From positions 576,001 to 640,000 of the forward strand of contig JBPOGI010000002.1 in NCBI GenBank assembly GCA_051251855.1: a DNA stretch of 64,000 nucleotides. Direction: 5' to 3'. This stretch comes from Roseibacillus sp. (GTDB lineage: Bacteria > Verrucomicrobiota > Verrucomicrobiia > Verrucomicrobiales > Akkermansiaceae). Positions within the stretch are counted from its first letter, which is position 1. Each line of letters begins with the position of its first letter. The notes below the pieces were generated by a model. It had not been told where the DNA came from. It searched no databases and worked only from the letters and a program-made list of their open reading frames with translations. Position numbers and translations under genes: made by a program. Below are positions 36,823 to 56,690 of the stretch, piece after piece.

Positions 36823-37533
36823 GTGATTCGACTGATTTATTTTTTCTCTTTCTTGTCCTTTTTAGAGGCTGCACCAAGGGTCGAATTTGAGAGTGTGCAA
36901 GGCAATACTGAGGTGACCATCTCGGAAGATTTATCGTTCACTGTTTCTCGGCCTTTGGGGTTCCAGGATGATCTCGTCGACTTTGTCTTTGTGGACGCTT
37001 ATTCGAGTTCGCAAGGTTTTGGCTCCGATGATTGTCATGTGGCTGGATTTCAAGGGGCTCAACCTCAAATCCGCATCAACGATGTCCTTGCCAGTGGACT
37101 CGTCGTGCTTTTGAGATGCCCCGAGGTTGATGTGGCAGCTACCGACGCTAAGATTTCAATTCTTCTTCCATCAGATATTTCGTTGGAGCTTGATGATGTG
37201 GTGAGCCTCTCGGCGGGCACTTATACGACTAGCTCGGAGCCGGTAGGAGGGCTTCCGTTGCCTGCCACTCCAGACCGTGAGGTGGAAACGGCCTTCCTGG
37301 CGCTTGAGAACGATAGGGTCTCGGAGAATCTCTCTTTAGGAGGTGACGGTGTCGCTCCCATTTTTGTCTCGATTGAGTCTCTGGCGGCGCAACCTCATGT
37401 CTTGGAGGTCGAGTTTTCAGGAGTTTTGGAATCTTCTTCCGATCTGGAAGGCTGGACGGTTTTGGACCCGCAGCCTACTTCGCCTTTTCAGATAACGACG
37501 GAGGACCCCGCGAGGTTCTTCCGAGTGAGATGA
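36823..37533 (+). CDS. Hypothetical secreted acidic protein with shared C-terminal domain
   Basis: Signal peptide; ends ...LESSSDLEGWTVL...PARFFRVR. Confidence 0.7.
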   Translation: MIRLIYFFSFLSFLEAAPRVEFESVQGNTEVTISEDLSFTVSRPLGFQDDLVDFVFVDAYSSSQGFGSDDCHVAGFQGAQPQIRINDVLASGLVVLLRCPEVDVAATDAKISILLPSDISLELDDVVSLSAGTYTTSSEPVGGLPLPATPDREVETAFLALENDRVSENLSLGGDGVAPIFVSIESLAAQPHVLEVEFSGVLESSSDLEGWTVLDPQPTSPFQITTEDPARFFRVR

Positions 37534-41068: not shown

Positions 41069-41095
41069 GAGTTTCGAGTAGACAGATTTTTCAAG

Positions 41096-41126
41096 AACGG
41101 CGCGAGGTGACTCGCGTCGTTTTTTT
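41096..41126 (+). terminator. Intrinsic terminator after gap
   Basis: AACGGCGCGAG-gtga-CTCGCGTCGTTTTTTT. Confidence 0.88.
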
Positions 41127-41213
41127 GTGGGATTATGGCTCCTCAGGCCTTAGCTGGGTAAAGAATTTCATTTTTATCGAAATCTTTCACCCGCTTGCTA
41201 TGAACCAGGAGGA

Positions 41214-41927
41214 ATGACTTCTGAAGTGGAAGGGAACTTTCCACCTACCCGGTGGAGCTTGGTGTCGTCAAACGCTGATCAAGAGAATGAGGAGATCCTC
41301 TGTCAGCTGTATTGGCGGCCTATCTTCGTTCACCTCCGGCAGCGCGCTTGGTCACGGGAAGATGCCGAGGACCTTACCCAATCGTTTTTTCTCCGCCTGA
41401 CCTCTGATCACACATTTTTCAATGCGGATCAGAAAAAGGGCAAGTTGCGCACTTTTTTGCTGGGAGCACTCCAACGTCACTTGGCTGACCACTTGCGCTA
41501 TACCGGTCGGCAGAAACGCGGGGGCAATGCCGAACACCTTCCGCTGGCGATTTCAGATTCTGATTTTGAAGATGCCGAGCATCGCTATATCACCGCGGTT
41601 GATGATGGCGCCTCGCCCGAGGATGCCTTTGACCGAGTCTGGGCGAGGGACCTTCTGACCCGCACCCATCAACGAATCGCTAACGACTATGAGCGGGCGG
41701 GAAAGTTGTTGGAATATGAAACCCTGAAACCTGCGCTGACCGTGGAGGATTCCTTGGACACCGCAGCGGCGGGCAAGAGGCTTGGAATCAAGCAGTCCTC
41801 GGTCCGGGTCTTAGTGCATCGACTCCGGCAAAACTTCCGCGCCGCCCTCCGCGACGAGACCGCGCAAACTCTGAATTCAAGAGCCGATGTTGATAGCGAA
41901 CTCAGTCACTTGCGCGAGGTTTTCTGA
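41214..41927 (+). CDS. ECF-type RNA polymerase sigma-70 factor
   Basis: FPPTRWSLV N-terminus; sigma2 (LCQLYWRPI...DAEDLTQSFF...KGKLRTFL); QKRGG; sigma4 HTH (AGKRLGI..SSVRVLVHRLR). SD GGAGG upstream. Confidence 0.88.
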   Translation: MTSEVEGNFPPTRWSLVSSNADQENEEILCQLYWRPIFVHLRQRAWSREDAEDLTQSFFLRLTSDHTFFNADQKKGKLRTFLLGALQRHLADHLRYTGRQKRGGNAEHLPLAISDSDFEDAEHRYITAVDDGASPEDAFDRVWARDLLTRTHQRIANDYERAGKLLEYETLKPALTVEDSLDTAAAGKRLGIKQSSVRVLVHRLRQNFRAALRDETAQTLNSRADVDSELSHLREVF

Positions 41928-41933
41928 TTTTTT

Positions 41934-41962
41934 TGAAACGAATTCGGAAGGAAGGCGAAAGA
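41934..41962 (+). promoter_or_regulatory. Putative ECF promoter, copy 1 (upstream of the kinase)
   Basis: TGAAACG-N15-CGAAAGA, 19 nt before the kinase ATG. Confidence 0.6.
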
Positions 41963-41981
41963 CTAAGGAAAGAGAACTTGA

Positions 41982-43520
41982 ATGAGTGAACCCGAATCGA
42001 ACTGCCCCTCCTGCTCCTTGCCCATCCAGGGAGGAACAGCCGGAGGCCTTTGTCCTCGCTGCTCGCTCGACTCGGTCTTATTTCAGGAAGAAAGTGTAGT
42101 GAAGAGTCAGCCCGGAGTTCTGGAGATTGAGGGAATCGAACTGCAGGCCGAGATTGGGGAGGGAGGATTCGGGATTGTCTATCGAGCCAACCAGACGGGA
42201 ATCGTCCGCCGCAAAGTGGCCCTCAAAGTCCTCAAACCCGGGGTCGATACGCGCCAAGTTTTGCGCCGCTTCGAAGTCGAACGCCAAGCCCTCGCGCATC
42301 TGGAGCATCCGGGCATTGCGCGATTCTACGAAGCGGGACAAACCAAAGAAGGCTACCCGTATTTCACGATGGAATTGGTGGAAGGAGTTCCCATCAACGA
42401 AGTGCTTGGCGGGCAGCCCTTGACGGATGTTATGGGCCTGTTTCTTCAAGTCTGTGAAAGCGTGGCCCACGCGCACGACCAAGGAATTCTGCACCGCGAT
42501 TTGAAACCGGGGAACATCCTCGTCACTCCTGCCGGAGCGCCCAAGGTCATCGACTTCGGCCTCGCCAAAGCGCTCGACGCTGAACAAGCGCCCGGCATGA
42601 CTCTCTACACCGGAGGGGAAGCTTGGCTCGGAACCCCGGGATATGCTGCTCCTGAACAGCTGAATGCGAGCGAGATTCAGCTCGATGAAAGAGCCGACGT
42701 TTTTTCGCTCGGGGCGATCCTTTATCATCTCCTCACCGGCTTGAACCCTGGAGACGCACGTGAGATGGCGACGCTCCCTGATACTCTTCCGCCTCCGTCG
42801 GAGATTGCTCTTCAAAAAATCGATCCCGCTTTGGATGCGATTACCCTGCATGCTCTCTCGTCCAATCGGGAAGAGCGCTACTCTTCGGTGCGGGCTCTCA
42901 TGGCCGACCTTCGCCGTTATCGCAATGGTGATGCGCTCTCTATCAAAGCGCCAAAACGCCGCTCCTTCAAGGGGCTACTATTCTCAGGCGCTCTCATCCT
43001 TTCTCTTGTTGCTGGCTGGATAATTTATTCCAGCACAAATCGAAATACCAACGAACCAACTGAGGTCATCTCAATCGAAAGTGACTATCATGGTTTCACT
43101 TTTGAAGAGATTGGCTTCATCAAGCTTACCGATGAGGAAGAAAGCATCCCGCCCTTCGACGAGTCGCGGAACTTTACCTGGATTCGTTTTCAGAAGCCGG
43201 ATGGGGGAGAGTTCATCCTTTCTTACGACGGTCTCTACCGCTCAGCGACCGTGACTCAATTTTTCGTCGGGGGAAAGCGTCCGGATGAACCCAGAGTGAG
43301 AGTGATTCCCGTGGATTCAGAGGAGGACAAGAAGCTCGTCCAATTATACGAAGGGCTGATTGAGAACGCCATTGGCTTGGAACAAGCGGCTTATCTCGAA
43401 GCCACGCCTTGGAGCGAACTTCCCAAGGGCAAGGGTTCGGAACAACTCCGCATGTTCAAGATCCTCTATGGGGCGATTGAGCTCTTCAAAATTCATCGCA
43501 AAGATAACGACTGGGAGTAG
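41982..43520 (+). CDS. Membrane-anchored Hanks-type Ser/Thr protein kinase
   Basis: N-terminal CxxC-12-CxxC; GEGGFG, VALK, HRDLKPGN, DFG, APE; one TM helix; C-terminal domain of about 160 aa. Confidence 0.95.
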   Translation: MSEPESNCPSCSLPIQGGTAGGLCPRCSLDSVLFQEESVVKSQPGVLEIEGIELQAEIGEGGFGIVYRANQTGIVRRKVALKVLKPGVDTRQVLRRFEVERQALAHLEHPGIARFYEAGQTKEGYPYFTMELVEGVPINEVLGGQPLTDVMGLFLQVCESVAHAHDQGILHRDLKPGNILVTPAGAPKVIDFGLAKALDAEQAPGMTLYTGGEAWLGTPGYAAPEQLNASEIQLDERADVFSLGAILYHLLTGLNPGDAREMATLPDTLPPPSEIALQKIDPALDAITLHALSSNREERYSSVRALMADLRRYRNGDALSIKAPKRRSFKGLLFSGALILSLVAGWIIYSSTNRNTNEPTEVISIESDYHGFTFEEIGFIKLTDEEESIPPFDESRNFTWIRFQKPDGGEFILSYDGLYRSATVTQFFVGGKRPDEPRVRVIPVDSEEDKKLVQLYEGLIENAIGLEQAAYLEATPWSELPKGKGSEQLRMFKILYGAIELFKIHRKDNDWE

Positions 43521-43565
43521 AGGCCGCAGAAATAGAGCCATTCCACTGAAGTTGACCCCGTCCGT

Positions 43566-46184
43566 TCAAGGTCCGCTGATTTGTAGGCGATAGAAGCGGT
43601 GTCCTTCAGCCGGCGGTGCGCTTGTATCGAGGAAGGTGGCCGTTCCTCCAGCTGCGCGATAGCGAATCTGATTATCGTCCAAGTCCAGAAACTGCCACGG
43701 TGAGTCCAAGTGATCGGTGTATTCAATCTCGTAAGCGCGATTGGAAAGGTAATCAAAACTGAGGGTGGGAGACTGGTTAGGAGTCTCGAAGGAAAGCAAG
43801 GTCTCGCAGAGCCGCTCCATGGGATCCACCGGACTCAAGCCGAGCAAATACTCCCCGTCATTGCTTAAACCGTCGTGGTCGAAGTCTGCTGTCCTTGCGA
43901 GAACTTCTCCCGCAGTCGCCAGCGACCATTCTTCGTAAGTTTGATATCCCGCAAGCTCGTTAATCCAGGCGGTGATGAGAGCCACTCCGTCCTCGTCCAC
44001 GACATGACTCGAGATGGGTGGCATTTGCGAGGACCCACGGGTCGAGATGCGGGAGAGCAGCATCGAGTTTGTCGGCGACCCCGGAACAATGACGCGGCTC
44101 GCGGTATTGTCGCCATTGTCACCCAGCACACCATTGATGATTCCAGCCTCGGCCAGTGGAGTCTGTAGTCGGCCATCCCACGCAGCCAGTCCGGAACCAT
44201 CATGGCAATTCGCACAGTTTGCCTGCAGATAGGAACGGGCGCGAAATTCGACGCTGACATCGACCGCAGAAGTGGGAGCGAGAGCGGGGAGGGAACGATG
44301 GGAAGGGGGCGTGTTTTCAAAGTAACCCATCGTGTTCAAGGCCGACAATTGATTGTGATCCTCAGACCCAAAGAGTCTCGTCCGATTCAGTTGGGCACTA
44401 TCGAAACCCAAGGCCCAACCGCTGTCTGGAGTGTGACAACTGATGCAATTTGATCGTGAAGGGTAGTCCCACCTCTGCGTCACGGCCAGACCATCGATGA
44501 TTCGATTGAGGTCTTCGGTGGCTCCTTCTTCCGGCACCAGCACGGCATCGGTCTGACTTGGATTCCAGCGATAGGTCACGCCGTAAACATCCGTCTCTGT
44601 CTTTACCAAGAAGCGCGTCTCCAGTCGGCGGGCGGTAGCAGGGTCACCTTCGGTCAATTCAATGTCAAAGTGTTTGATCCAAACGCTGCCCGTCGGAAAG
44701 GTAAAGGGACCTTCGGAATCGTAGCCAATCTGATCCGCGACCTCAGGCACACTTAACCAACGGGATTTATCGGCCCCATCAGACCAAAAGGGGGCATTGA
44801 TTTGGTAGGGGAGAATGCCTGCTTCTGGAACCAAGGAAGCGAGATTCGAAAAGGCTCCAGTCGCGGAGAGGGTCGGAGGAAGCGAATCCGTCGGTTCCGA
44901 TAGGTTGCGAACGATCCGTTGAACCGAATCACCATAGGCTATCAGCACATCTCCGTTCCTTGGGTCTTCCCCAAAGGCCCGCGGGCCAAATCCGTAGGAG
45001 GTTGCGACCACCTCATAAGGCACAGGATTGGCGCCATTCGGGATAAGCCCTCGGATTTCCCCGTTACCCCAATCTGTGAAGAGATACGTGCCACTCAGCT
45101 CAGGCAAACGTGAACCCCGATAGACCACGCCACCAATCACCGATAGTCCAGCGTTTCGCCCATAGGCATTGATTGGTTCCACAAAGGCTACCCCCGCTGG
45201 CGGCGTCCCTACTCCAGCGCCCGTTCCCTCCCGAAAGGGCCAACCGTAGTTGCCACCTGCTGTGATTGAATTCACTTCCTCAAAGTCATTCTCCCCGACG
45301 TCGCCCAGGAAAATGGAGCCAGACCCGGAATCAATACTGAACCTCCATGGGTTCCGAAGACCGACCGCAAAGAACTCCGTTCGCAGATCGGCTGCGGCCA
45401 CCGAGAGGCCGTTAAATTCCGTCGCTCCCACGAAAGGGTTGTCACTCGGAACCCAATAGCTGCCAACAACGCTGGGATGGGGGTTGGGAGCGAGACTCCC
45501 TGGCAGGCCATCGACATCGATCCTCATCACCGCAGAGTAGAAATCCCGATCGATTTTCTGCGCGTTCCTGCGATCCCCACCATCTCCCAGCGACACATAG
45601 AGGAACCCATCCCCGCCGAATTCCAAATCTCCCCCATTGTGATTGCGCCCCCACTCATCGCCCGGCTGTCGGATCAGGACGCTCTCACTCGTGGCATCTC
45701 CCAAGTCCGCATCAGAAGCGTCGACCGTGAACCTCGCGAGGACGTCATCATGGACGATGAGCGGGCTGGGATTGCCCTGCGTATAGAAAACGTAGAAGTA
45801 TCCGTTCGTCGCATAGTTCGGATGAAAGGCCATCCCGAGCAAACCTTCCTCACCCGTCCCGCTTTCCACGCGGTCGGTCAGATCCAGAAATTCCTCCGGG
45901 ACAGGGTTTGCGAGATCCGGAATGACGAAAATTCTGCCTCCTTGATCGACAACAAAAAGGCGGTCATCATTCGGCGGCGAAACCAGATCTACCGGAGACC
46001 CCACAGACCCCAGTTGGGCATCTTCCAATTGGTAAGGCTCCAAGCTCAATATCGCAGGTGGCATTTGAAGGGTGGTGTTCGCAACCCGTTCTGGAATCTG
46101 CCCCCTTACCAGCGCACCGCCCAGAATCGAGAGGCTCAACAAACAAAGCACCTTGGTCATCGTTGAAAAATTATCAGTTATCAT
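43566..46184 (-). CDS. Secreted glucose/sorbosone (PQQ-dependent sugar) dehydrogenase-like protein with two c-type heme motifs
   Basis: [23 protein letters not shown]...GDGG, GLRNPWR, GDVG, GGNYGWP; CISCH and CANCH; DxDxDG plus C-terminal domain. Confidence 0.85.
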
Positions 46185-46224
46185 AGCTCTGTAGGGTCCG
46201 TACGAGAGACTGTCCTCACTTCAA

Positions 46225-46253
46225 TCTCTCGATAAACGTTCCCAAACGTTTCA
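46225..46253 (-). promoter_or_regulatory. Putative ECF promoter, copy 2
   Basis: Minus strand TGAAACG-N15-CGAGAGA, upstream of the dehydrogenase-like gene. Confidence 0.65.
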
Positions 46254-46426
46254 GTCAAAATAGATTTTTTTGACCGCAAAACGAGCGAAAATAAAGTTCC
46301 TTAGAAATTGAGTTTCGTAAGTTTCGCGGTCAACTTGTCAAAGCATTCACGGAGAACAGGGAGAAGGTTTTAGCATTTTCCTTAGCTTGATTTCCCAGCA
46401 CGAAGAACCGTTGCTGTCCGATGAGA

Positions 46427-49400
46427 CTACTCCACGTTCAGGAGGTAAAAGGCGGCATCATCGAGGACGGGGAATTGAAATTCGATTTCGCCGGAGCTGT
46501 TGATGGTGGTTTCAGGGTCCGTGAAAGGGAAGGGGAGAAAGGTGCTGAGGTCAGTGGCTTTTTCAATCCCGATGGTCAGGGTAGCGGTGCCGCCTGTGAC
46601 TTGGAGCATTGGGGTGCCGACGTGGATGGCCTGGACTGCTGACTCGGTATAGAGCCCAGCAGTAGACGCGTTGGTCAGTAGGTCGTTCACTCTGTTAGGT
46701 TGTGCCGTTTCCCAATCAAAGCCGAAGCCTCGCAAGGAGTACTCGGCCCAGTCGTTCATGCCATCGCCATCGCCGTCTGTGGAGTGCGAGAGCCCTAGTC
46801 CGGAGATGTTGAAGGTGAATATCGGATCGCTGGAATCATTGGAGGTAATCAGAACGGAAGCGTTGCGCAGGGCAGTGCTAGGGCCAGAAGGGGTGAATGT
46901 AATGGTGAAATCAAGGCTCTGACTGGAAGTGAGATCGACTGTAGAGCTGATGACTGGCAGCGTCAGGCTAAACTCACCTAAGTTCGCTCCGCCTCGTGAA
47001 ATACTCTGAAGATCGAGATCAAGTTCGCCACCATTGACGAGGCGAAAGGTATAGGCCTCGCTGGTCCCCAGTTGCTGGCCATTGAACGATGCGGCGGCGC
47101 TGCTGTTGGTCAATTGAGTGCCAAAATGATCATACACGAGTAGTTCTCTTTGCCCAGAGATCGCAAATCTGTAGAGGTAGATGCTGCCGGCATCGGGGGC
47201 TTCATCGTTGTCACCGTATGCGCCGACAACGACGGAATCTCCTGAAATAGCGACAGAATGTCCGTAAAAGTCGAACGCCGCTGCATCGCCGGCGGTGAGC
47301 TTGGCTTCTTGGGACCATGAGGTTCCACTACGGGTGTAAAGATAGGCACTGCCAGAAGATGTGCCGCCATCATCGTCATTCAAGGCACCGACAACGACGG
47401 AATCCCCCGAAATGGAAACGGACTTTCCAAAGCCGTCATCGTTCGCCGGATCGCTCGCGGTCAGCTTGGCTTGTTGGGACCATGAAGAGCCACTGCGAGT
47501 GAAGACCCGGGCGCTACCTGTGGAAATACTTCCAATGAATTCCTCCTGTTCGACCCCGACGACAATGGAATCTTCTGAGATGGCGACAGAAGCTCCAAAC
47601 CAGGCATTCACCACAGGATCGTCTGAGGTGAGTTTATCTTGCTGTGACCATAGAGACCCACTACGCGTAAAGACATAGGCACTGCCAGAATTTGTCCGGA
47701 CATCATCATCTTGAAAAGCTCCGACGACGACGGAATCACCAGAAATGGCGACAGAAAATCCAAAGAAATCAGCTGCTGCAGCATCGTCCGCGGTGAGCTT
47801 GGATTCCTGGGACCATGAGGTGCCACTGCGTGTGAAGATATAGGCACTGCCAGATGAGCCTAAGCCGCAATTGTCGCTCCGGAAAGCTCCGATAACAACG
47901 GAATGGCCTGAAATAGAGACAGAACGTCCAAAGAAATCAGCGCTCGCAGCATCGTCAGCGGTCAGCTTGGCTTGCTGGGCCCATGAAGACCCACTGCGGG
48001 TGAAGACGTAGGCACTGCCAGAAGATGAGCCGCCATCGTCGTCGCCGTCCGCCCCGACGACGACAGAATCGCCTGAAATGGCGACCGATTCTCCAAATGA
48101 ATCACTTGCCGCAGCATCATTTGCCCTCAGTTTGGCTTGCAGGAACCATAAATTGCCGCTGCGTGTGAATACATAGGCACTGCCTGAGGAAATGCCGCCA
48201 TCGTCATCCAGTTTGACACCGACGACAACGGAATCGCCTGAAATAGCAACAGAATCTCCAAAGCGGTCCAACTCTGCAGCTTCGTTCGCGGTCAGCTTGT
48301 CTTGCTGGGACCACGAAGTGCCACTGCGGGTGAAGACGTAGGCACTGCCAGAAGATGAGCCATCATCGTCGTCTAGATGAGCACCGGCGACGACAGAATC
48401 GCCGGAAATGGCGACTGTTTTTCCAAAGTTGTCATTAGCCGCAGCATCGCTAGCAGTCAGCTTGTCTTGCTGAGACCATGAAGAGCCACTGCGGGTGAAG
48501 ATGTAGACCCCGCCAGAACTTAGACCAGCGTGGGAGTCACCGTTGGCACCGACGGCGATGGAATCGTCAGAAATAGCGACAGATTCTCCAAAGAAAGCAA
48601 GCGCTGTGGCATCGCCAGCGTTCAGCTTGGCTTGTTGGGACCATAAAGAGCCACTGCGGGTGAAGACATAAGCGCTGCCGGAAGCTGAGCCGGCATCGTC
48701 ATCACTGTAGGCACCGACGACGATGGTATCGCCTGAAATAGCGACAGAATCTCCGAAGTTATCACTGGCCGCGGCATCGCCAGCGGTGAGCTTGTCTTGT
48801 TGGGACCAAGAAGAACCACTGCGGTTGAAAACGTAGGCACTGCCGTAATCGGTGCCGATGTTGTCGTCAAGATTAGCGCCGACAACAGCGGAATCGCCGG
48901 AAATGGCGACGGAAATTCCAAAGTTATCACCAGCCGCAGCATCACTCGCGGTGAGCTTGGCTTGCTGAGCCCACGAAGAGCCACTGCGGTTGAAAACGTA
49001 AGCACTGCCAGAAAAGGACCCGTTGTCATCGTTCAGACGAGCACCGACGATAACGGAATCGCCAGAAATGGCGACCGAGTATCCGAAGTTGTCTTCAGAA
49101 GCGGCATCACCAGCCGTGAGCTTTTCTTGCAAGGACCATAAAGAGCCAACGCGGGTGAATAGGTAGGCACTGCCGGAATTTAGTCCGCCATCGTCGTCCC
49201 GATAAGCGCCGACGGCGACAGAATCCCCTGAAATGGCGACCGAGAATCCAAACCTGTCCTCCCTCGCAGCATCGTCAGCGGTCAGTTTGGCTTGCAGGGA
49301 CCAGGAAGAACCAAAGCGTGTAAAGATATAGGCACTGCCGGAGGCAGAGCCGCCATCGTCATCTCGTTCGGCACCGACGACGACGGTGTCTCCTGAAATA

Positions 49401-50401
49401 GCGACCGAGGTTCCAAATCTATCACTGGACGAGGCATCGTTCGCGGAAAGTTCGGCTTCTTCATTGACGATCAAAGGATCAACGGTCACGGGGTAGACGG
49501 CTTGGGCATCATTATAGGCAAGTAAAAAACCGGTCTCGATTGGTTCCATCGTGGCCGGGAGTTCCTGGCCTTGGGCATCCACGACGAGGAGTTTGGAATA
49601 GCTGAGCACGGTTCTCTTACCTTCGTTAAAGTTGAGTTGGTAACTGCCATCCTCAGCGGTATGGGCAGCCGCTGTGAGACCGTAGAGAGCGACTTCGATC
49701 ACAACCTCTTCGGTTGGATTTAGATGTGCGGGGCGTTGGGCAACGGTGTAGCCATGCTCCATCGCGACGACGCCATTATGATACCACTCGGTCAGTTCGG
49801 GGCTATGTCGATATTCGACCCTCGTGCTGGAGGTTTCATTTTTTTCAGGAGAAGCACTAAGTGGAATGTTGTTTCCAGCGAAGGAAAGCACGTTCATCTG
49901 CGCGGTCCAAGAGGTGGAGGCCTTCTCGGCATCTTCCTCAGTATAGGTCCGATCTGAGGAAACAAACTGTATCCCTTGAGGCCCAAATCTTGTGGTGAGA
50001 TTCTGCTTAGGGTGCAGGGCATAGAAATCGAAACCGAGGTTTTCCTCACGTTGGCTCCACGACTCAGGGATGGGTCGGATCTCACGACGCGCCTCCGAGA
50101 ATGCAGCCCAGAGGGACTTTTGCTCCGATTGAGAAAGCTCCTCGATCTCCTCTTGGGATTTGTTTGTCTTGTTAAGATAAGCAGGCGAGGAGTTAGTAAC
50201 GAGGTGGCGATTATTTTGACTAACTTCAGGTTGGGAGGGAGATGTAGTGGGAGTCAAAGATGGTGAAGATGTATCTGATGCAGCCCTATCAGTTTGGAAA
50301 TCCTCTTTGGTTTTCAGTTCTTTGGAGTCATCACTAGGCTTATATAAAAAGGCAGCTCCGATGAGAGCGATGACGGGCAGGAAATAACGGATATTTTTCA
50401 T
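46427..50401 (-). CDS. Large secreted FG-GAP-repeat (integrin-alpha-like beta-propeller) protein
   Basis: Hydrophobic N-terminus; domain ending YPVTVDP; 14 repeats of about 55 aa (KLTA.DAA..D.FG.SVAISGD.VVVGA..DDD.G..SGSAYVF.RSG..W.QQ); Ig-like domain; DGDGDG plus C-terminal domain. Confidence 0.9.
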   Translation of the reverse strand: MKNIRYFLPVIALIGAAFLYKPSDDSKELKTKEDFQTDRAASDTSSPSLTPTTSPSQPEVSQNNRHLVTNSSPAYLNKTNKSQEEIEELSQSEQKSLWAAFSEARREIRPIPESWSQREENLGFDFYALHPKQNLTTRFGPQGIQFVSSDRTYTEEDAEKASTSWTAQMNVLSFAGNNIPLSASPEKNETSSTRVEYRHSPELTEWYHNGVVAMEHGYTVAQRPAHLNPTEEVVIEVALYGLTAAAHTAEDGSYQLNFNEGKRTVLSYSKLLVVDAQGQELPATMEPIETGFLLAYNDAQAVYPVTVDPLIVNEEAELSANDASSSDRFGTSVAISGDTVVVGAERDDDGGSASGSAYIFTRFGSSWSLQAKLTADDAAREDRFGFSVAISGDSVAVGAYRDDDGGLNSGSAYLFTRVGSLWSLQEKLTAGDAASEDNFGYSVAISGDSVIVGARLNDDNGSFSGSAYVFNRSGSSWAQQAKLTASDAAAGDNFGISVAISGDSAVVGANLDDNIGTDYGSAYVFNRSGSSWSQQDKLTAGDAAASDNFGDSVAISGDTIVVGAYSDDDAGSASGSAYVFTRSGSLWSQQAKLNAGDATALAFFGESVAISDDSIAVGANGDSHAGLSSGGVYIFTRSGSSWSQQDKLTASDAAANDNFGKTVAISGDSVVAGAHLDDDDGSSSGSAYVFTRSGTSWSQQDKLTANEAAELDRFGDSVAISGDSVVVGVKLDDDGGISSGSAYVFTRSGNLWFLQAKLRANDAAASDSFGESVAISGDSVVVGADGDDDGGSSSGSAYVFTRSGSSWAQQAKLTADDAASADFFGRSVSISGHSVVIGAFRSDNCGLGSSGSAYIFTRSGTSWSQESKLTADDAAAADFFGFSVAISGDSVVVGAFQDDDVRTNSGSAYVFTRSGSLWSQQDKLTSDDPVVNAWFGASVAISEDSIVVGVEQEEFIGSISTGSARVFTRSGSSWSQQAKLTASDPANDDGFGKSVSISGDSVVVGALNDDDGGTSSGSAYLYTRSGTSWSQEAKLTAGDAAAFDFYGHSVAISGDSVVVGAYGDNDEAPDAGSIYLYRFAISGQRELLVYDHFGTQLTNSSAAASFNGQQLGTSEAYTFRLVNGGELDLDLQSISRGGANLGEFSLTLPVISSTVDLTSSQSLDFTITFTPSGPSTALRNASVLITSNDSSDPIFTFNISGLGLSHSTDGDGDGMNDWAEYSLRGFGFDWETAQPNRVNDLLTNASTAGLYTESAVQAIHVGTPMLQVTGGTATLTIGIEKATDLSTFLPFPFTDPETTINSSGEIEFQFPVLDDAAFYLLNVE
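47160..49460 (-). repeat. Intragenic tandem repeat, 14 units of about 165 bp
   Basis: GAGCCACTGCGGGTGAAGA and GAAATGGCGAC-like blocks recur with a ~165-nt period; boundaries approximate. Confidence 0.9.
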
Positions 50402-50529
50402 GTAAGTAAGACGTGAGTTTTTGAAAATTTGAGAGTCCCTATGCTATAGACCAAAAAACGGCTACGCGACGGAAAAATCTCCCTTCGGCACATCTTTCGG
50501 AACTGCAACGGAGACCGTTCTCATCTCAA

Positions 50530-50558
50530 TCTCTCGACAAACATCCCGAAACGTTTCA
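50530..50558 (-). promoter_or_regulatory. Putative ECF promoter, copy 3
   Basis: Minus strand TGAAACG-N15-CGAGAGA, upstream of the FG-GAP gene, inside a ~70-bp block similar to 46203-46272. Confidence 0.65.
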
Positions 50559-50747
50559 GGCAAAATGAATCTTTTTTTGCAGGAGAAATCTGAGAACCAC
50601 CAATTGGGCTGCGTTCGGCGCATAGATTGCGTATCGTGGAGGGGGGAGGAATCTCGACCGGTTTTTTGTGAGTATTGAGATCATGCCGATAGCTTTTGCT
50701 GAGATTGGGAAGAAAGGTTCCAGTCGATCAGAAAGTATGATGAGCCT

Positions 50748-52571
50748 ATGGGATTCCTGTTCTCTTTTTTCCTTATCGGTTCTTCTCTTTTAATGAGCAA
50801 AGATACCTTTGTTCCCATTCAAATGGATGAGGAGGTTCCCTCAAATGTGCCTGACCTTTGGAAGGGTTATGACCCGACGGTGGAGCCGTTGGATGTGGAG
50901 GTGGTGACTACTTTTGAAGAGGACGGGATTATCTGCAAATATGTTATCTATACGGTGGCTACGGTGAAGGGCGTTCCTTCGCGCATTGCTGCCTATTATA
51001 CTTATCCAAAAGGTGGGGAGAAGCTTCCGGCCTTTGTTTGGGCACATGGGGGAGGGCAGAAGGCGGATCGGTCTCGTGGTCTCTACTTTGCCAAGATGGG
51101 CTATGCTACTATCGATATCAATTGGAATGGGCGCGAGTTGGAACCGGGAATTGAGAAGAATACGGATTGGGGAATGGTCGACCCCTCGCAGGGAAAGCCA
51201 TTCTATGCGAAGGCTCCCCGCGAGAAGCGAAATCATGGAATGACTCCTGACGATTACAACATCGACCCGATGGTGAGTCCTCGGAATAAGTCTTGGTTCT
51301 TGCTTGCGGTAGCTGGGCGGCGGGCGATCACGTTTTTGGAACAGCAGCCGGAAGTGGATGCTGATAAGATTGGGTTCACTGGGTTTTCGATGGGAGGAAA
51401 TATTACGGCCTTTGTCGCGATTGATAGTCGGCTCAAGACGGTGGTGCCAGTAGTGGGTGGCACGGGTTTTCACTATGAAGAGATTCCCGGATATCCTCGA
51501 AAGAATCGAACTCGGCCGAATGGTGTTCTCGAAGATGCGACGATTGTGCCGCAGGTCTATTGGCCGCACGTCAAGATTCCAGTCTTGTTCATGAGTGGGA
51601 CGAACGACTTTCATGGGCGTATTGATTTCATGCAAAAGTGCGTGGATTTACTTCCACATGATGAGTGGAGCTTGTCACAGACGATGCACAATAATCACAA
51701 CCCAGGGAACCGGTCGTGGCTGGCGGTGGAGTATTGGTTCGACCAATATCTAAAAGGGCAAACTGCTCTCGTTCCAAAGACTCCCCAATCTGAACTCACT
51801 CAGAACTCGGAAACGGAGTGGACTTTTACTGTGACCCCGGACGCTGCGGAAAAGGTCAAGTCAGTGACTGTTTTTTACAGTTGGGATAGTGCGGTTTCCA
51901 ATCGCTACCACAAGCCGCTGATTCCAACTCAAGAGGGTGAGACCTGGTCGGCAACGATTCCCGCTCGAGCAGACTTGCCTCTCACGGTGTTTGCCAATGT
52001 TCACTATCAGACCCGTGATGGGGAATCAGAGGAGTCATTCACGGGGGTGGCCGATTGCTTTTCGGTGACCTCCCGATTTTATCGACAGATTCCTGAGAAT
52101 GTTCTTGAAGAAATCTATCAAGAGGAGGCCTCCAATCGAACTTTCGAACCGGTCTTTGCAGAGTTTCCGAAGGATAACGCAATGTGGGGAATTAGTAATC
52201 GCGACTTGAGCCTGCAGACCTATAAGTTCAATGACTTTGAGCTGAAGTTTCCTAAGGAAAGGAAGCTCAAGTTTGCGGTGGATCCGCAAGGAGGGAAAGT
52301 GGAACTCAAAGTCTACTTTAGCTCGCAGAAATATCGTGATGGCGAACGCAATGAGGGCAGCCGGATTACGATTAAGAAACGATTGACCGAACCGGGAGAT
52401 CTCGTGATCGCGTTGGAAGATTTGGTCTCAGCTGAGGGGGATCGCATCACCTCTTGGCATAATGTGGCCACGATGAAGGTTGTTCTGAGCGACTTTGGAG
52501 GTGGGGGCCCGATCGACCTGCTTGATTCTAAGGCGGAGCATTTGAAGAGGATTGAATGGGTTGATGAATAG
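50748..52571 (+). CDS. Alpha/beta hydrolase (dienelactone hydrolase / acetylxylan esterase-like) with C-terminal extension
   Basis: HGGGQ, QPEVDADKIG, GFSMGG nucleophile motif, GTNDFH, HNH. Confidence 0.8.
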   Translation: MGFLFSFFLIGSSLLMSKDTFVPIQMDEEVPSNVPDLWKGYDPTVEPLDVEVVTTFEEDGIICKYVIYTVATVKGVPSRIAAYYTYPKGGEKLPAFVWAHGGGQKADRSRGLYFAKMGYATIDINWNGRELEPGIEKNTDWGMVDPSQGKPFYAKAPREKRNHGMTPDDYNIDPMVSPRNKSWFLLAVAGRRAITFLEQQPEVDADKIGFTGFSMGGNITAFVAIDSRLKTVVPVVGGTGFHYEEIPGYPRKNRTRPNGVLEDATIVPQVYWPHVKIPVLFMSGTNDFHGRIDFMQKCVDLLPHDEWSLSQTMHNNHNPGNRSWLAVEYWFDQYLKGQTALVPKTPQSELTQNSETEWTFTVTPDAAEKVKSVTVFYSWDSAVSNRYHKPLIPTQEGETWSATIPARADLPLTVFANVHYQTRDGESEESFTGVADCFSVTSRFYRQIPENVLEEIYQEEASNRTFEPVFAEFPKDNAMWGISNRDLSLQTYKFNDFELKFPKERKLKFAVDPQGGKVELKVYFSSQKYRDGERNEGSRITIKKRLTEPGDLVIALEDLVSAEGDRITSWHNVATMKVVLSDFGGGGPIDLLDSKAEHLKRIEWVDE

Positions 52572-52610: not shown

Positions 52611-55493
52611 TTAGTTCTTGGGAGGGACGGTGACTTTGAGTGCTTTGAGAACCAGTTGGGAGAGTAAGCGATTGCCTTTCTCGTTCATGTGAACTTTGTC
52701 TCTGGTGAAGATGCCCTCGGTGGCCTGTTGAGGATTCTGATTTTTGAGTTGGTTGAGGAATGATTTCCGCAGGTCGAGGAGTTGGGAATTGGTTTCGCGG
52801 GCGACTTTCCGGCTGATGTCGGCGTATTGGTCGAGCATTTCATCGTCAGGGTTTGAACCATCGGATTTCTCGCCGATGACGGTGGGGGTGCAGAGGATGA
52901 CGCGAGCCCCAGCCTTGTTGATTTGGGCGATCATGTCTTTGAGGCCGTTTTCGAAATTTTTCGGAGTGGTTCCCTTTCTTCCGCGGGCCACGACCTTGGG
53001 ATGAGTCCAATGCCAGACGTCGTTGATGCCGATATAGATGAAGACGATGGTGGGTTTTTTCTGGAGAACGTCTTTGTCGAGGCGTCGCTGACAGTCCGGA
53101 ACTTTATGCCCACCGACGCCGGCTCCGATGAGTTCGATATTGAGGTCGGGGTGAGCTTTGGCAATGGCTTGGGAAGAGATAGCGATATAGCCACCTTCGC
53201 GGGGACCCTCGGCGGTGATGGAGTCTCCGAGGAAGATGATTCGATCGTTTTTTTGCAGTGTCCCTTTGTTAGGGTTGAATGTCTGATTGCTAATTCGCTT
53301 GTCGGCGCCGGTGGTTTTTCTGTTGTTGTTAGTTTCGAAGTTGTTGCGGAAGGAGTCGAGGGATTGGTCGTAGTCGATGTCGGGAACGATCCAGAGGTTA
53401 CGGAAGGAAACACCGGTGCCTTTATGGTCTTGGATCATGAGGGGACGTTTGCCGTGTTTTTGATAAGGCTTCCCAACTTCACCATAGGTCCAGGCGTCGT
53501 TGTGAATGAGGATGCCGTTGTGATACATGGTGACCCGGAGGGGTTCTTTGAGACTGCCATCGTCGTGAAACTCGGGGGCCTTGTAGAGGATGTCGTAGGA
53601 CTGCCATTCGCCGGGTTTCCGACAGGCATTGGCTTGGGGGGGATGTTGACCGTAGATTGAGCCGCAGTGGCCATCGGCAAAGGTGGGGTTTTGGTAGCTG
53701 TTGACGACTTGAAGTTCGTAGCCGGACTGGAGGAAGACGCCGGTGTTGCCGTAGAGTTGTCCGGTCCACTGGGGGTCGTTAGAGGGGTCGAACCGGAATT
53801 CCAGATGAAGACGAGCGGAGCCGTAGGATTGTTTGGTGGCGTTGTTTCCCTTGCTGCGCGGCACTACGCCATCGTCATCGAATTTCCAGTTGGGGTTGGT
53901 CCATTGGGAGGCATCAAGGAGGGTGGCATTGGCGGGCATGGGGACGGCGCAATCTTTTTCCGGAAGAGGAGTGACCACGGGTGGGAGGGGGCGGGTCTTG
54001 TCGTTGCGAACCCAACCGGAGCCGACGAGCTGAATAGCGTGAGCTTTCTTTTCGCGCGCCTCTTTCGCGGGGAGAAGTTTGTTGGCGGTGTAGTAGATGG
54101 TGTCAAAATCGAGGGGCTGGGAGTCACCGTTTTGTTGCTCGGGGAATTGGATGGCATAGACTTTTCCGGCAGTGAGTGGGACGTCAAAGGTGACGGTCTT
54201 CCCATCCTCCGAGAGTTGGTAGTTGGTGACGGGGATTTCTTTTTCATCCACCATGGGGGAGCCGTAGGTGCTGTAGTAGTGGTAGTGATAATTCCTGACC
54301 TTGGGGGTGACTTCCTGCCCGAGCGGTTGGGTGAAAGTGACGGAGAATCCGGTCTTGGTGAGCTGGGTGGAGTGGATCGCAAAGGGGGTAGTTTTGCCAT
54401 CCCACTCCGCATACTGGAGGGCGGTGCGCTTACCACCGGCGCTGAACCAACCGCGCCCGACTTGAGCGGACCAGAGGCGGCCTTGTTGGTCGAACGAGAG
54501 TTTTACGCCGCCGGAACTGGTGCCGCGAAGGAAGTCGACGCACCAGCCTTGCAGGTCGCCATCTACTTTTTGAAGGCCGCAGCGGAAGTAGTTCGATTGG
54601 CGCTGGTCGGTGAGGAAGATTTGATTTTGAAAGGGGCCGAATTTTCCTCCGGTGGTATCCCAAACGGGGCTGCCGGGTGAGTTGGCAATGGCTTCGCGAG
54701 GGAACCAGATGGCGGGAGGGGTGCGGAGCTTGTCGAAGTCGGCTGCTTTCAGGGAAAGGACTCTTTCTTTCGTGAAATCAGGGCGCGCTGGAAGGGAGGC
54801 AGGGTGTCCGTAGAAGTTGCCCTCGCGGACGTGGAAGAGACAGCAGTCGGCCACCCAATCACCTTGGTTGTCGGTGATGAAAAGTTGGTCGTCGGGGCTC
54901 ATGCCGATGCCACAGGGGGACCGGAATCCAGAGGCGAAGGGTTGGAAGTGGCCACGGCGATCGGAGCGGTAGACCCAGCCGCGCCAAGGGGCGGTGTAGG
55001 CCATGTTACCTCCGCCTTTCCCTTTTTCTTTACCATCGGGAACGATGAAGTCGCCACGGGCCGCGAGGTTGAGAGAGGCATACTTGCGCCCGAGCGAATC
55101 GACGACGGGACCATAGTGATACTCATGGTATTCCCCGGAGATTCCGAAGGCATCAGTGATGCATTCGTAGCGATCGCAGATGCCGTCCTTGTTGCTGTCA
55201 ATGAGGCGGGTGAGTTCGGGTTTCTGCGCGACGTAGTAGGCTTCTTCTTTGGGGTCAAAGTAGATGCCGTTGGGTTCCATGAGGTTCTCCGCGAACTTGC
55301 TCCAGGTCTTGTTTTGATATTCCCAGACTTCGCCTTCCCAAGAGACGACGGCGAGGGTGCCATCAGGCTTGTGGCAAAGGCCAAGCACGGTGACGGCTCC
55401 TTTGGGAAGGGGAACGGTGGTGAGTTGATAGCCTGCGGGAATTTGGGCGGTGAGGACGCTCGCGAGAGCGAAGAACAGAAAAAGGAATTTCAT
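52611..55493 (-). CDS. Secreted multidomain protein: beta-propeller + DUF1080 (3-keto-glycoside hydrolase-like) + SGNH/GDSL esterase
   Basis: Propeller (YHEYHYG, SGFRSPCG, TDNQGDW); DUF1080 (LHLEF, GNTGVFLQ..YELQV, GSIYG, PGEWQSYDI, IQDH...VSFRNLW); SGNH (FLGDSIT, GIND, DKVH). Confidence 0.82.
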   Translation of the reverse strand: MKFLFLFFALASVLTAQIPAGYQLTTVPLPKGAVTVLGLCHKPDGTLAVVSWEGEVWEYQNKTWSKFAENLMEPNGIYFDPKEEAYYVAQKPELTRLIDSNKDGICDRYECITDAFGISGEYHEYHYGPVVDSLGRKYASLNLAARGDFIVPDGKEKGKGGGNMAYTAPWRGWVYRSDRRGHFQPFASGFRSPCGIGMSPDDQLFITDNQGDWVADCCLFHVREGNFYGHPASLPARPDFTKERVLSLKAADFDKLRTPPAIWFPREAIANSPGSPVWDTTGGKFGPFQNQIFLTDQRQSNYFRCGLQKVDGDLQGWCVDFLRGTSSGGVKLSFDQQGRLWSAQVGRGWFSAGGKRTALQYAEWDGKTTPFAIHSTQLTKTGFSVTFTQPLGQEVTPKVRNYHYHYYSTYGSPMVDEKEIPVTNYQLSEDGKTVTFDVPLTAGKVYAIQFPEQQNGDSQPLDFDTIYYTANKLLPAKEAREKKAHAIQLVGSGWVRNDKTRPLPPVVTPLPEKDCAVPMPANATLLDASQWTNPNWKFDDDGVVPRSKGNNATKQSYGSARLHLEFRFDPSNDPQWTGQLYGNTGVFLQSGYELQVVNSYQNPTFADGHCGSIYGQHPPQANACRKPGEWQSYDILYKAPEFHDDGSLKEPLRVTMYHNGILIHNDAWTYGEVGKPYQKHGKRPLMIQDHKGTGVSFRNLWIVPDIDYDQSLDSFRNNFETNNNRKTTGADKRISNQTFNPNKGTLQKNDRIIFLGDSITAEGPREGGYIAISSQAIAKAHPDLNIELIGAGVGGHKVPDCQRRLDKDVLQKKPTIVFIYIGINDVWHWTHPKVVARGRKGTTPKNFENGLKDMIAQINKAGARVILCTPTVIGEKSDGSNPDDEMLDQYADISRKVARETNSQLLDLRKSFLNQLKNQNPQQATEGIFTRDKVHMNEKGNRLLSQLVLKALKVTVPPKN

Positions 55494-55505
55494 GGAGAGA
55501 GAAGA

Positions 55506-56612
55506 TTAGTTGGCGGAAATGGTGAAGGCAGATTCGCCATCAGGTGCGATGGTGACGGTCATCGGCTTGCCATCGACGAGGGAGTGAATGAGGGCGGATT
55601 TCCCCTTGGATTCGTAGGCGATGAACTGGGTGTTCGGGGACTTGAAAAGGGGGCGGGCACTTGCGGGGATTTCGGTGCCATTGATTTCGGAAGGCTTTTG
55701 GCTGCGATCCGGAAGGGAAGGGGTTTGGTTGATCTCGGCAGAGTGCCAGGCATTGAGGACGGAGCCGTCGACCGGGTTGTAGGCGACAATGACTTTGTTC
55801 GGCAGCAGGCAAAGAAGAGCGCGTGGAGGTAGTTCTCTGATCCACTTGCGGACGATCTTGGCTTCGGGGCCTGCGGCGATCACTTTAGGGATGTTTCCTT
55901 GCAGGCTTCGTCCGGTGAGGGGGAAACTGATTCCTCCGGGTCCATTCAAGGTGGCGTGGAATCGGTAAGAGTGACTCTTCGGCTCATTGTGAAGAATTTC
56001 GAAGGAATAGACGCCGGGATCGAGATCGAGGGTTTGGTTGAGCTCCTGATCTTTGGCGTCCGAGTAGTGAACTTCCTTCCCCTCAAAATAGACCGCGGTG
56101 CGGCCGAGACGGCGGATGCTAAAGTGATAGGAACCGGCTTTGCGGATGTGGACCTTGGCCGTGACTCGAATGACTCCGATGGCATTTCGCTTCATATAAA
56201 TCCAGTTTTCCGGAAGGTGAGTCTGGGAAGTGGATTCGACGGTTGTGAAGAGCTCTGGGGCGAGGCGTTTTCCAGCGAAAAATTTAGGAGGGTAGATGGA
56301 GCGCACCATTTCACGAACTCCTTCCTGCTTCGAGAGCAGGAAATCACGTAGCGACAGGCGGTCAGCTTCGGGGAAGACGTCCTTGTATCCGATCATTTCC
56401 GACCCTTCGACGCCATGGTTGATGACGTCAAGAATGGCCTCTGGCGACGAGCCATGATGCCAGTAAGCGTCTGTGAGTGAGGGGCCAATGCCTCCTTCAA
56501 GATGGGGGCCGTGGCAGGTGAAACAAAGCTGGTTGTAGATGACCTCTCCCCGAGCGGGATCGGCCTGGGTCAGGCTTGTTGAGAGAAGGAGTGGGGCGAG
56601 GAGCCATTTCAT
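55506..56612 (-). CDS. Secreted c-type cytochrome with PA14-like beta-sandwich
   Basis: Signal peptide; CFTCHG..LEGGIGPSLTD..W.HG; distal Met (SEM); downstream GSYHF...LDPGVYSFEILH. Start set at 56612. Confidence 0.75.
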   Translation of the reverse strand: MKWLLAPLLLSTSLTQADPARGEVIYNQLCFTCHGPHLEGGIGPSLTDAYWHHGSSPEAILDVINHGVEGSEMIGYKDVFPEADRLSLRDFLLSKQEGVREMVRSIYPPKFFAGKRLAPELFTTVESTSQTHLPENWIYMKRNAIGVIRVTAKVHIRKAGSYHFSIRRLGRTAVYFEGKEVHYSDAKDQELNQTLDLDPGVYSFEILHNEPKSHSYRFHATLNGPGGISFPLTGRSLQGNIPKVIAAGPEAKIVRKWIRELPPRALLCLLPNKVIVAYNPVDGSVLNAWHSAEINQTPSLPDRSQKPSEINGTEIPASARPLFKSPNTQFIAYESKGKSALIHSLVDGKPMTVTIAPDGESAFTISAN

Positions 56613-56690
56613 GAGAATAACTCTACGCAGGGAGGTCGGTAAGAATATCTTCATTTTAGGGGAGAGATGAGGGCTGAGCTGATTTAGCCG

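What the first reader, a model, noticed from the sequence alone, without database searches (positions are those of the whole stretch)
41214..50580. Candidate kinase-controlled ECF regulon readable from sequence: ECF sigma + Ser/Thr kinase + two secreted targets sharing one promoter motif
Seen: the motif TGAAACG-N15-CGA(A/G)AGA occurs three times with identical spacing, always in sense orientation upstream of a gene. Copies are at 41934-41962 (+, kinase), 46225-46253 (-, heme/dehydrogenase-like protein) and 50530-50558 (-, FG-GAP protein). No anti-sigma gene is adjacent, and I did not see the motif before the sigma gene itself. Established: ECF -35 elements typically contain AAC, and some ECF groups pair with Hanks kinases instead of anti-sigmas. 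Inference: this sigma transcribes its own kinase (feedback) and two large surface proteins in response to a signal sensed by the kinase's C-terminal domain. I do not know of a described system with this promoter and these outputs.
Basis: partly seen in the sequence, partly recalled or inferred. Interest (0 to 1): 0.85.

Follow-up and report, generated by a model that had tools for sequence, protein, structure and literature searches.

The report
Kinase-tethered sigma and its private promoter
A two-part DNA motif sits in front of a membrane kinase gene and two likely exported-protein genes beside a sigma factor and travels with that sigma in other Verrucomicrobia, so it is likely the sigma's promoter; a structure model predicts that the kinase grips the sigma with a small zinc domain, which would make it a sensor and an anti-sigma factor in one protein.

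Summary
Observation confirmed: TGAAACG-N15-CGARAGA occurs exactly three times in the 4.96-Mb genome, all here, each upstream of a gene. The two cargo copies are one duplicated 66-bp block (82% identical), so the window holds two independent sites, not three. Comparative evidence is strong: the same boxes and spacing precede different exported-protein genes beside related sigmas; of 401 family genomes only the two with the closest sigmas (100%, 89%) hold three or more copies; start codons cluster 35-36 nt after the -35 box. The regulon is local and looks horizontally acquired. The sigma keeps its DAED motif, so EcfP-type phospho-activation is not expected. A complex model (score 0.72, best control 0.34; mark reached by 116 of 157 solved and 2 of 215 mismatched pairs) docks the kinase's N-terminal 4-Cys zinc ribbon on sigma region 4 and its C-terminal helix. 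Best reading: the kinase is a membrane tether/anti-sigma that releases the sigma on signal, and sigma-driven kinase transcription is negative feedback. No start site, binding or phosphorylation was measured. The scan has noted kinase-linked ECF promoters on other DNA before. Resembles ECF62; membership untestable here. New variant of a known kind.

The parts
41085..41135 (+). Terminator-like hairpin plus U-run after the GAPDH gene; left boundary of the block
   Evidence: -23.8 kcal/mol, z -5.85, 0 of 200 shuffles as good
41155..41213 (.). Conserved upstream block of the sigma gene. In L001, L002 and L041 it also carries a divergent TGTAACC-N15-CGARAGA promoter for a cargo gene; here homology stops at 41160, where that -35 box begins, and box and gene are gone
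41214..41927 (+). ECF sigma factor, 237 aa: N-terminal FxTxW[ST] motif, intact DAED (50-53), sigma-2 and sigma-4, extra C-terminal helix 223-236; conserved Thr12, Ser15, Thr55, Thr219
41934..41962 (+). Predicted promoter of the kinase gene (TGAAACG-N15-CGAAAGA); predicted start about 41969
   Evidence: (0 and 1 mismatch in L001, L041)
41982..43520 (+). Hanks-type Ser/Thr kinase, 512 aa, catalytic motifs intact, one hydrophobic segment (residues about 331-349), C-terminal domain of no known family
42003..42083 (+). Kinase N-terminal 4-Cys zinc ribbon plus amphipathic helix (residues 8-34), predicted sigma-binding module
43044..43517 (+). Putative extracytoplasmic sensor domain (residues 355-512), found in only 7 database proteins, all kinases
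43566..46184 (-). Cargo 1: 872-aa glucose/sorbosone-dehydrogenase-like propeller plus di-heme c domain (CxxCH at 579, 656), hydrophobic N-terminus, C-terminal FYRL-type tail; likely exported
   Evidence: 81% ortholog in G304 with the same promoter
46225..46253 (-). Predicted promoter of cargo 1 (TGAAACG-N15-CGAGAGA), inside duplicated block 46206-46271; predicted start about 46218
46427..50401 (-). Cargo 2: 1324-aa protein with 14 FG-GAP_2 repeats and a weak choice-of-anchor D domain, hydrophobic N-terminus; likely exported
50530..50558 (-). Predicted promoter of cargo 2 (TGAAACG-N15-CGAGAGA), inside duplicated block 50511-50576; predicted start about 50523

Best explanation
The motif is likely the promoter read by the neighbouring ECF sigma, which would transcribe the kinase gene and the two likely exported-protein genes, while the membrane kinase is predicted to hold the sigma through its N-terminal zinc ribbon and would release it when its outer domain senses a signal. 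Steps: (1) shown: motif, gene layout, co-occurrence of motif and sigma clade across genomes; (2) inferred, about 0.9: TG(A/T)AAC is the -35 and CGA(A/G)AG the -10 element, start about 35 nt after the first base of the -35 box; (3) inferred, about 0.85: the regulon is local (kinase plus swappable cargo) on a horizontally moved block; (4) predicted, about 0.7: kinase residues 8-34 bind sigma region 4 and its C-terminal helix; (5) inferred, about 0.5: this binding is inhibitory, signal-driven phosphorylation (candidates Thr219, Thr12/Ser15, or the kinase itself) frees the sigma, and sigma-driven kinase synthesis is negative feedback. The signal is not known.
For: Only 3 exact copies in the genome, all here. 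The genes behind these sites differ: TSP3-repeat protein, subtilase, beta-helix, BNR-like, LamG proteins. Relaxed pattern in 401 family genomes: 3 or more copies only in G000 (3) and G304 (4; sigma 89%), 2 in G235 (sigma 86%), G142, G298. In G304 the cargo-1 ortholog keeps the motif and an unrelated gene in place of the FG-GAP gene has it too; 10 distant cargo-1 homologs have best 3-6 mismatches. Across 110 family sigmas the -35 hexamer lies within 106 nt after the stop in 27 on the sense strand, 5 antisense, 7.3 in shuffles (max 14 of 300); the distance to the next start codon peaks at 35-36 nt (9 of 78 loci). B. subtilis ECF promoters have the same form, TGAAAC with CGTA/CGAC (PMC5758882, passages). 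DAED kept: D50 in 80 of 110, D/E53 in 110 of 110, so core binding should not need phosphorylation there (PMC8999054, passages). Complex model: score 0.72, best of 3 controls 0.34; mark reached by 116 of 157 solved and 2 of 215 mismatched pairs (counts hold only roughly: own alignments, zinc riding along); runs agree in at least 83% of contacts, partner pLDDT at least 74; tightest contacts are kinase 20-32 with sigma 141-152, 172-175, 205-212, 230-234, and the interface also lists 195-203 of the recognition helix. No like complex found by sequence in the PDB. 31 of 38 kinases directly after family sigmas carry the ribbon, and the other 7 keep a hydrophobic helix there by eye; 6 of 6 family sigmas in G000 have a ribbon kinase, 1 of 9 other kinases has a differently spaced one.
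Against: Nothing was measured: no start site, binding or phosphorylation. The two cargo promoters are one duplication. 4 of 11 clade loci lack a site at 3 mismatches or fewer. The relaxed pattern was partly learned from G235 and G304, and its reversed control reached 3 copies in 1 of 401 genomes. One of the four G304 copies precedes only a 15-codon frame. The model cannot tell inhibition from docking for activation, and general sigma/anti-sigma complexes are solved, so some memory effect is possible. EcfK is also activated by phosphorylation of a linker Thr outside sigma-2.2 (PMC13147305, passages), so an intact DAED does not exclude phospho-activation. Kin are not independent, so the counts overstate.
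Confidence: 0.52

Rival explanations
1. Same promoter and targets, but the kinase is an activator: the zinc ribbon only docks the sigma so that it can be phosphorylated (Thr219, Thr12/Ser15, Thr55 or a linker residue), and kinase transcription is positive feedback. This is closest to the first reader's picture.
For: Catalytic motifs are intact. Ser/Thr is conserved at sigma 12 (108 of 110), 15 (107), 219 (108), 55 (88). Both tested pairs, EcfP-PknT and EcfK-PknS, are activating, and EcfK uses a site outside sigma-2.2. The review notes Ser/Thr near DAED in some other groups.
Against: DAED is intact. The modelled interface lists kinase residues 8-34 and C-lobe surface patches and covers part of the sigma's recognition helix; the catalytic and activation loops are not among the confident contacts (unnamed residues are uncertain).
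Confidence: 0.3
2. The motif is a promoter read by another ECF of the host (a paralog or a SigW-like sigma), and its link to this sigma is through shared history of the block.
For: The -35 element TG(A/T)AAC is shared by the family and by many ECF groups; G000 has 5 further family sigmas.
Against: Paralog loci in G000 have other -10 boxes (TGAAT, CTAAT/TAAAT, GTCAGG, TCGTGA); -10 classes group by sigma clade on the tree, by eye; no excess of sites elsewhere in the genome; the motif follows the sigma clade across genomes.
Confidence: 0.08
3. The motif is not a promoter but a by-product of local duplication, a recombination site or a repressor operator.
For: 66-bp duplication between two of the copies; the block looks mobile.
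Against: Boxes are kept while spacers diverge in non-homologous contexts; always in sense orientation; fixed 34-36 nt distance to start codons in many sites; not palindromic; no conserved RNA fold in the leaders.
Confidence: 0.05

Closest known systems
ECF62 (Casas-Pastor et al. 2021, PMC7826278, supplementary text)
   Same: ECF with a kinase at +1; kinase has one transmembrane helix and, in subgroups 1-3, an N-terminal zinc finger; no separate anti-sigma gene.
   Different: Described as 100% Planctomycetes, with promoter motifs 'not conserved' and no role given to the zinc finger; here a Verrucomicrobia lineage with a clear promoter lying after, not before, the sigma gene, and a non-WD40 outer domain.
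ECF43 sigma/kinase pairs EcfP-PknT (Vibrio parahaemolyticus) and EcfK-PknS (Xanthomonas citri)
   Same: Sigma gene followed by a membrane Hanks kinase; weak Sigma70_ECF (PF07638) match.
   Different: ECF43 lacks DAED and is switched on by phosphorylation there; predicted promoter GTC / CAG. This sigma keeps DAED, has an extra C-terminal helix and a TG(A/T)AAC / CGA(A/G)AG promoter.
Bacillus subtilis SigW/SigX/SigM promoters (PMC5758882)
   Same: -35 TGAAAC, -10 beginning CG, similar spacing; selectivity set by the -10 letters.
   Different: -10 is CGA(A/G)AG, not CGTA/CGTC/CGAC; those sigmas have separate anti-sigma genes and autoregulate the sigma gene.
Zinc-binding anti-sigma factors (RsiW, RsrA type; recalled, RsiW complexes seen) and PknB-RseA-SigE of M. 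tuberculosis (mentioned)
   Same: A small N-terminal zinc module tethers a sigma to a membrane protein; a kinase takes part in release.
   Different: Here the module is a CxxC-n-CxxC ribbon with no Pfam or PDB match at significance, fused to the kinase itself; binding is only predicted.

Membership tests
ECF sigma factors (group 4) | sigma-2 and sigma-4 only, about 200-240 aa | tested here: met
   PF07638 above cut-off, TIGR02937 E 3.3e-10; best fold matches are ECF sigmas
ECF43 | DAED replaced by Ser/Thr in sigma-2.2 | tested here: not met
   DAED at 50-53, conserved in the family; definition
ECF43 | Predicted promoter GTC (-35) / CAG (-10) | tested here: not met
ECF62 | Kinase at +1 with one transmembrane helix | tested here: met
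   (single hydrophobic peak, mean 2.0 at 331-349); definition
ECF62 | N-terminal zinc finger in the kinase (subgroups 1-3) | tested here: met
   C8, C11, C24, C27 conserved; whether it is the same kind of finger as in ECF62 was not testable
ECF62 | WD40 repeats in the kinase (subgroups 1-2) | tested here: not met
   No Pfam match in the outer domain; the kinase at L064 has WD40-type domains
ECF62 | Planctomycetes only | tested here: not met
   Closest relatives are titled Verrucomicrobiales / Akkermansiaceae
ECF62 / ECF59 / ECF61 / ECF217 | Match to the group HMM or placement among group members | not testable with these tools
   No group HMMs or reference sequences on hand
ECF59 | Predicted -35 with conserved TC | tested here: not met
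ECF promoters | AAC-containing -35, CG-type -10, fixed spacer | tested here: met
ECF promoters | Sigma-dependent transcription from a mapped start | not testable with these tools
   needs experiment
Anti-sigma factors | Direct binding to the cognate sigma | tested here: inconclusive
   Model supports, does not show (0.72 vs best control 0.34; 116 of 157 solved, 2 of 215 mismatched reach the mark)
Anti-sigma factors | Inhibition of sigma activity, relieved by signal | not testable with these tools
   needs experiment
Known zinc anti-sigma domain (zf-HC2/ASD) | Pfam match of the N-terminal domain | tested here: not met
   Only weak zinc-ribbon families at E 0.09 or worse

The most novel reading that the evidence does not exclude
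A large family of Verrucomicrobia sigma/kinase pairs uses an undescribed control mode: the receptor kinase is itself the anti-sigma, capping sigma region 4 and a family-specific C-terminal helix with a 4-Cys zinc ribbon, and releasing it by phosphorylation; each clade reads a private -10 box behind a shared TG(A/T)AAC -35 box placed after the sigma gene, which makes the pair a portable switch that recruits unrelated exported proteins.
Probability: 0.45. Interest if true: 0.75.

Novelty: new variant of a known kind. Interest (0 to 1): 0.52.

Why it matters
How kinase-paired ECF sigmas that keep DAED are controlled is named as open in a review (PMC8999054), and the classification paper found no conserved promoter for ECF62. 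This locus gives both a precise promoter (and a likely reason why it was missed: it lies after the sigma gene) and a concrete, testable binding model. An 80%-identical sigma is present in a cultured strain, Verrucomicrobiaceae bacterium 227, so the tests can be run. The promoter part alone is an ordinary ECF promoter and has been noted by this scan for other kinase-linked sigmas.

Tried and rejected
Genome-wide regulon: a weight matrix from 10 relative sites (picked with a pattern relaxed from the window's motif, so not blind) ranks the 3 window sites first, but sites of 14 bits or more number 77 at spacer 15 against 63-97 at spacers 13, 14, 16, 17: rejected. Structured RNA behind the promoters: leaders fold no better than shuffles (z 1.39, -0.94, -1.60, 0.13): rejected. 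Sigma-70-type promoter scan: 5 found, 5.4 expected, none before the sigma gene. Autoregulation of the sigma gene: no motif match upstream; family-wide upstream counts were weak (16 sense, 9 antisense of 110). Sensor domain: no Pfam family, no usable Atlas hit, model pLDDT 69, best Z 3.9; a blank shows neither novelty nor absence. No RNA holder was listed. Locus tags of strain 227 were not found in the searched supplements of PMC12872454; files 11 and 13-17 of 17 were not searched. Accession look-up of four relatives could not be made. N-termini of two kinases beside the other sigma type looked anti-sigma-like from memory but gave no such Pfam match. Literature: searches found no paper on this promoter or on a zinc-ribbon role; the library lacks most subscription papers (Jogler 2012 and Iyer 2020 were seen only as cited by others), and the supplement of PMC7826278 is cut, so its Table S2 may bear on this.
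Full report
Observation. The motif TGAAACG-N15-CGARAGA is at 41934-41962 (+), 46225-46253 (-) and 50530-50558 (-), with none in 100 shuffles. In the whole genome (4.96 Mb, 13 contigs) these are the only three copies at spacer 15; the ten other spacers tried give 0 or 1. The genes are an ECF-type sigma, a Hanks kinase, a dehydrogenase-like propeller with two CxxCH motifs and a 14-repeat FG-GAP protein. Export of the last two is inferred from hydrophobic N-termini and a C-terminal FY-x-L tail seen in the sequence; no signal-peptide predictor was run. The two minus-strand copies lie in a 66-bp block that is 82% identical: one duplicated promoter. The window alone therefore offers two independent sites.

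Host and relatives. The nearest sigmas come from records titled Verrucomicrobiales and Akkermansiaceae. A protein search gave 65 hits, 36 of them a clade at E 1.4e-53 or better, including two from the cultured strain 227 (80% and 48%). Of 401 family genomes 11 hold a match at E 1e-44 or better (at most 7 candidates scored per genome).

The motif follows the sigma, not the cargo. With at most 2 mismatches there were 11 hits at spacer 15 against 4-7 at spacers 13, 14, 16, 17; 7 of the 11 lie directly after the sigma gene or before a divergent neighbour. Allowing 3 mismatches, 7 of the 11 loci with sigmas of 44% identity or more have such a site, and 1 of 7 more distant loci. Of the four misses, L060 and L061 have weaker look-alikes found by eye, L062's sigma has an in-frame stop, and L058 shows nothing. 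The genes behind the sites are unrelated to the window's cargo: a TSP3-repeat protein, a subtilase, beta-helix proteins, BNR-like and LamG proteins. The pattern TGWAACS-N15-CGARAGA, partly learned from G235 and G304, matched 66 of 401 genomes; three or more copies occur only in G000 and G304 (sigma 89%), two in G235 (86%), G142 and G298; the reversed control reached three in one genome. In G304 the 81% ortholog of cargo 1 keeps the motif exactly, and the next gene upstream, unrelated to the FG-GAP gene, has it with its ATG 35 nt from the -35 box; 10 distant homologs of cargo 1 have at best 3-6 mismatches (for 2 of them the gene start lay beyond the fetched flank). A fourth G304 copy precedes only a 15-codon frame, and only 4 of 30 inspected matches from other genomes (30 of 74 listed) are intergenic and upstream of a gene.

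It behaves like a promoter. Over 110 distinct family sigmas (loci I fetched, not the whole family), a [TG]G[TA]AAC hexamer lies within 106 nt after the stop codon in 27 on the sense strand, 5 on the antisense strand and 7.3 in shuffles (max 14 of 300). In 78 loci with a downstream frame the distance from the hexamer to the ATG peaks at 35 (6) and 36 (3); two more paralog loci of G000 have a GTG at 35. This is what leaderless or nearly leaderless transcripts from a -35 box would give (inference) and predicts starts near 41969, 46218 and 50523. The form matches B. subtilis ECF promoters, TGAAAC with CGTA, CGTC or CGAC (PMC5758882, passages). The -10 box differs between clades, which group on the sigma tree by eye, and the paralog loci of G000 carry other -10 boxes, so cross-talk is likely small. 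A weight-matrix scan found no regulon outside the locus.

The block looks mobile. UvrA is 85% identical to G004 (same genus) and 64-66% to G304 and G235, while the sigma is 48% to G004 and 86-89% to those two. Three of three same-genus genomes inspected have other genes after GAPDH. GC skew is near zero over 40-50 kb against mostly 0.15-0.37 in the flanks. Homology to L001, L002 and L041 begins at 41160, exactly where those loci have the -35 box of a divergent cargo promoter; that arm is missing here.

How the kinase may act. Kinase-paired ECF groups are known: ECF43, 59-62, 217, 267, 283 (PMC7826278, passages and supplement part 15 plus searches). The tested ones, EcfP and EcfK (ECF43), lack DAED and are activated by phosphorylation; other groups keep DAED and their mechanism is called open (PMC8999054, passages); EcfK also uses a linker Thr (PMC13147305, passages). 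This sigma keeps DAED, as does its family. The kinase has intact catalytic motifs and an N-terminal CxxC-x12-CPxC ribbon, present in 31 of 38 kinases that directly follow family sigmas and in the partner of all 6 family sigmas of G000, one across a frameshift, but in only 1 of 9 other kinases, with other spacing. I had noted the anti-sigma idea and sent the complex job before seeing earlier findings. The model of kinase 1-320, zinc and sigma scored 0.72 with a best control of 0.34; the mark is reached by 116 of 157 solved and 2 of 215 mismatched pairs (rough here); the three runs agree in at least 83% of contacts and the sigma's pLDDT is at least 74. The most certain contacts join kinase 20-32 to sigma 141-152, 172-175, 205-212 and 230-234, that is region 4 and the family's extra C-terminal helix, whose Leu233 is invariant; residues 195-203 of the recognition helix are also listed. 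From my own knowledge of ECF structures, not tested here, this is the surface region 4 uses for core polymerase and -35 DNA, so binding would be inhibitory. No like complex was found by sequence. Thr219, Ser/Thr in 108 of 110, sits in the hinge before that last helix and is my first candidate for a release site. With only 54 nt between the genes and no terminator-like site called there, read-through would supply basal kinase, and the internal promoter would add kinase whenever sigma is free: negative feedback under the tether model, positive under the activator model. The model shows neither binding nor its sign, so I give 0.52 to the tether model and 0.3 to activation. The outer domain has no known family or fold and is replaced by WD40-type or other domains in relatives, so the signal cannot be named.

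Comparison and verdict. It works like an ECF/anti-sigma switch built from an ECF/kinase pair. It is not ECF43. It shares the kinase anatomy of ECF62 but not its described host range, and group HMMs were not available. My searches found no paper with this promoter or with a role for the ribbon. The scan's earlier, unchecked notes report the same kind of local promoter for other kinase-linked sigmas, one with an anti-sigma-like zinc domain in myxobacteria, and this stretch was read once before in another window. New variant of a known kind; interest 0.52.

Noticed in passing
G000:C10:104600-105400 (-): The kinase paired with the C10 family sigma is frameshifted at a run of C just after its zinc ribbon; assembly error or phase variation.
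   Followed up: partly
P0071: A 335-aa relative of the kinase has lost most of the catalytic domain but keeps zinc ribbon, membrane helix and outer domain (2 members, 5 contigs); would fit a tether that needs no catalysis, or a decaying gene.
   Followed up: no
L061:10558-10640: A clade sigma with changes in the recognition helix (His202 to Ser among them) has a changed -35 look-alike, TGTTTCG, at the usual place; one example of possible covariation.
   Followed up: partly
G000:C9:108345 (-) and G000:C13:17349 (+): Paralog loci carry TGTAAC boxes with other -10 boxes (GTCAGGA; TCGTGAA) exactly 35 nt before a GTG start, before the kinase and a large exported-type gene respectively.
   Followed up: partly
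G000:C1:817930 and G000:C7:238173: These two paralogs have the family -35 box both before the sigma and before the kinase, so autoregulation exists in other clades.
   Followed up: partly
window 36823-37533, 43566-46184, 46427-50401; cargo in L039, L042, L059, L063, L151: Many likely exported proteins end in a shared tail with an F-Y/F-x-L motif, often after DxDxDG repeats; no Pfam match in the pieces scanned; possibly a Verrucomicrobia sorting domain.
   Followed up: no
L059:3566, L151:4742, L186:5260: One BNR-like exported gene family carries the promoter in three genomes with its ATG at 35-36 nt; in G256 no sigma lies in the fetched stretch.
   Followed up: partly
L185:1656-1684 (G304:C221): Exact motif with an ATG at 34 nt but only a 15-codon frame, facing the end of trpS: orphan promoter or chance.
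   Followed up: partly
L062 (G095:C56:60364-61059): Clade sigma with an in-frame TGA; its kinase has altered DFG and APE motifs: likely a decaying pair.
   Followed up: no
G000:C11:2720 and G000:C8:258914: Kinases beside the other sigma type have a different helical N-terminus that recalls anti-sigma domains; no Pfam support.
   Followed up: partly
window 52611-56654: The long ORFs 52611-55493 and 55506-56654 read open on the minus strand; 50748-52571 is on the plus strand.
   Followed up: yes
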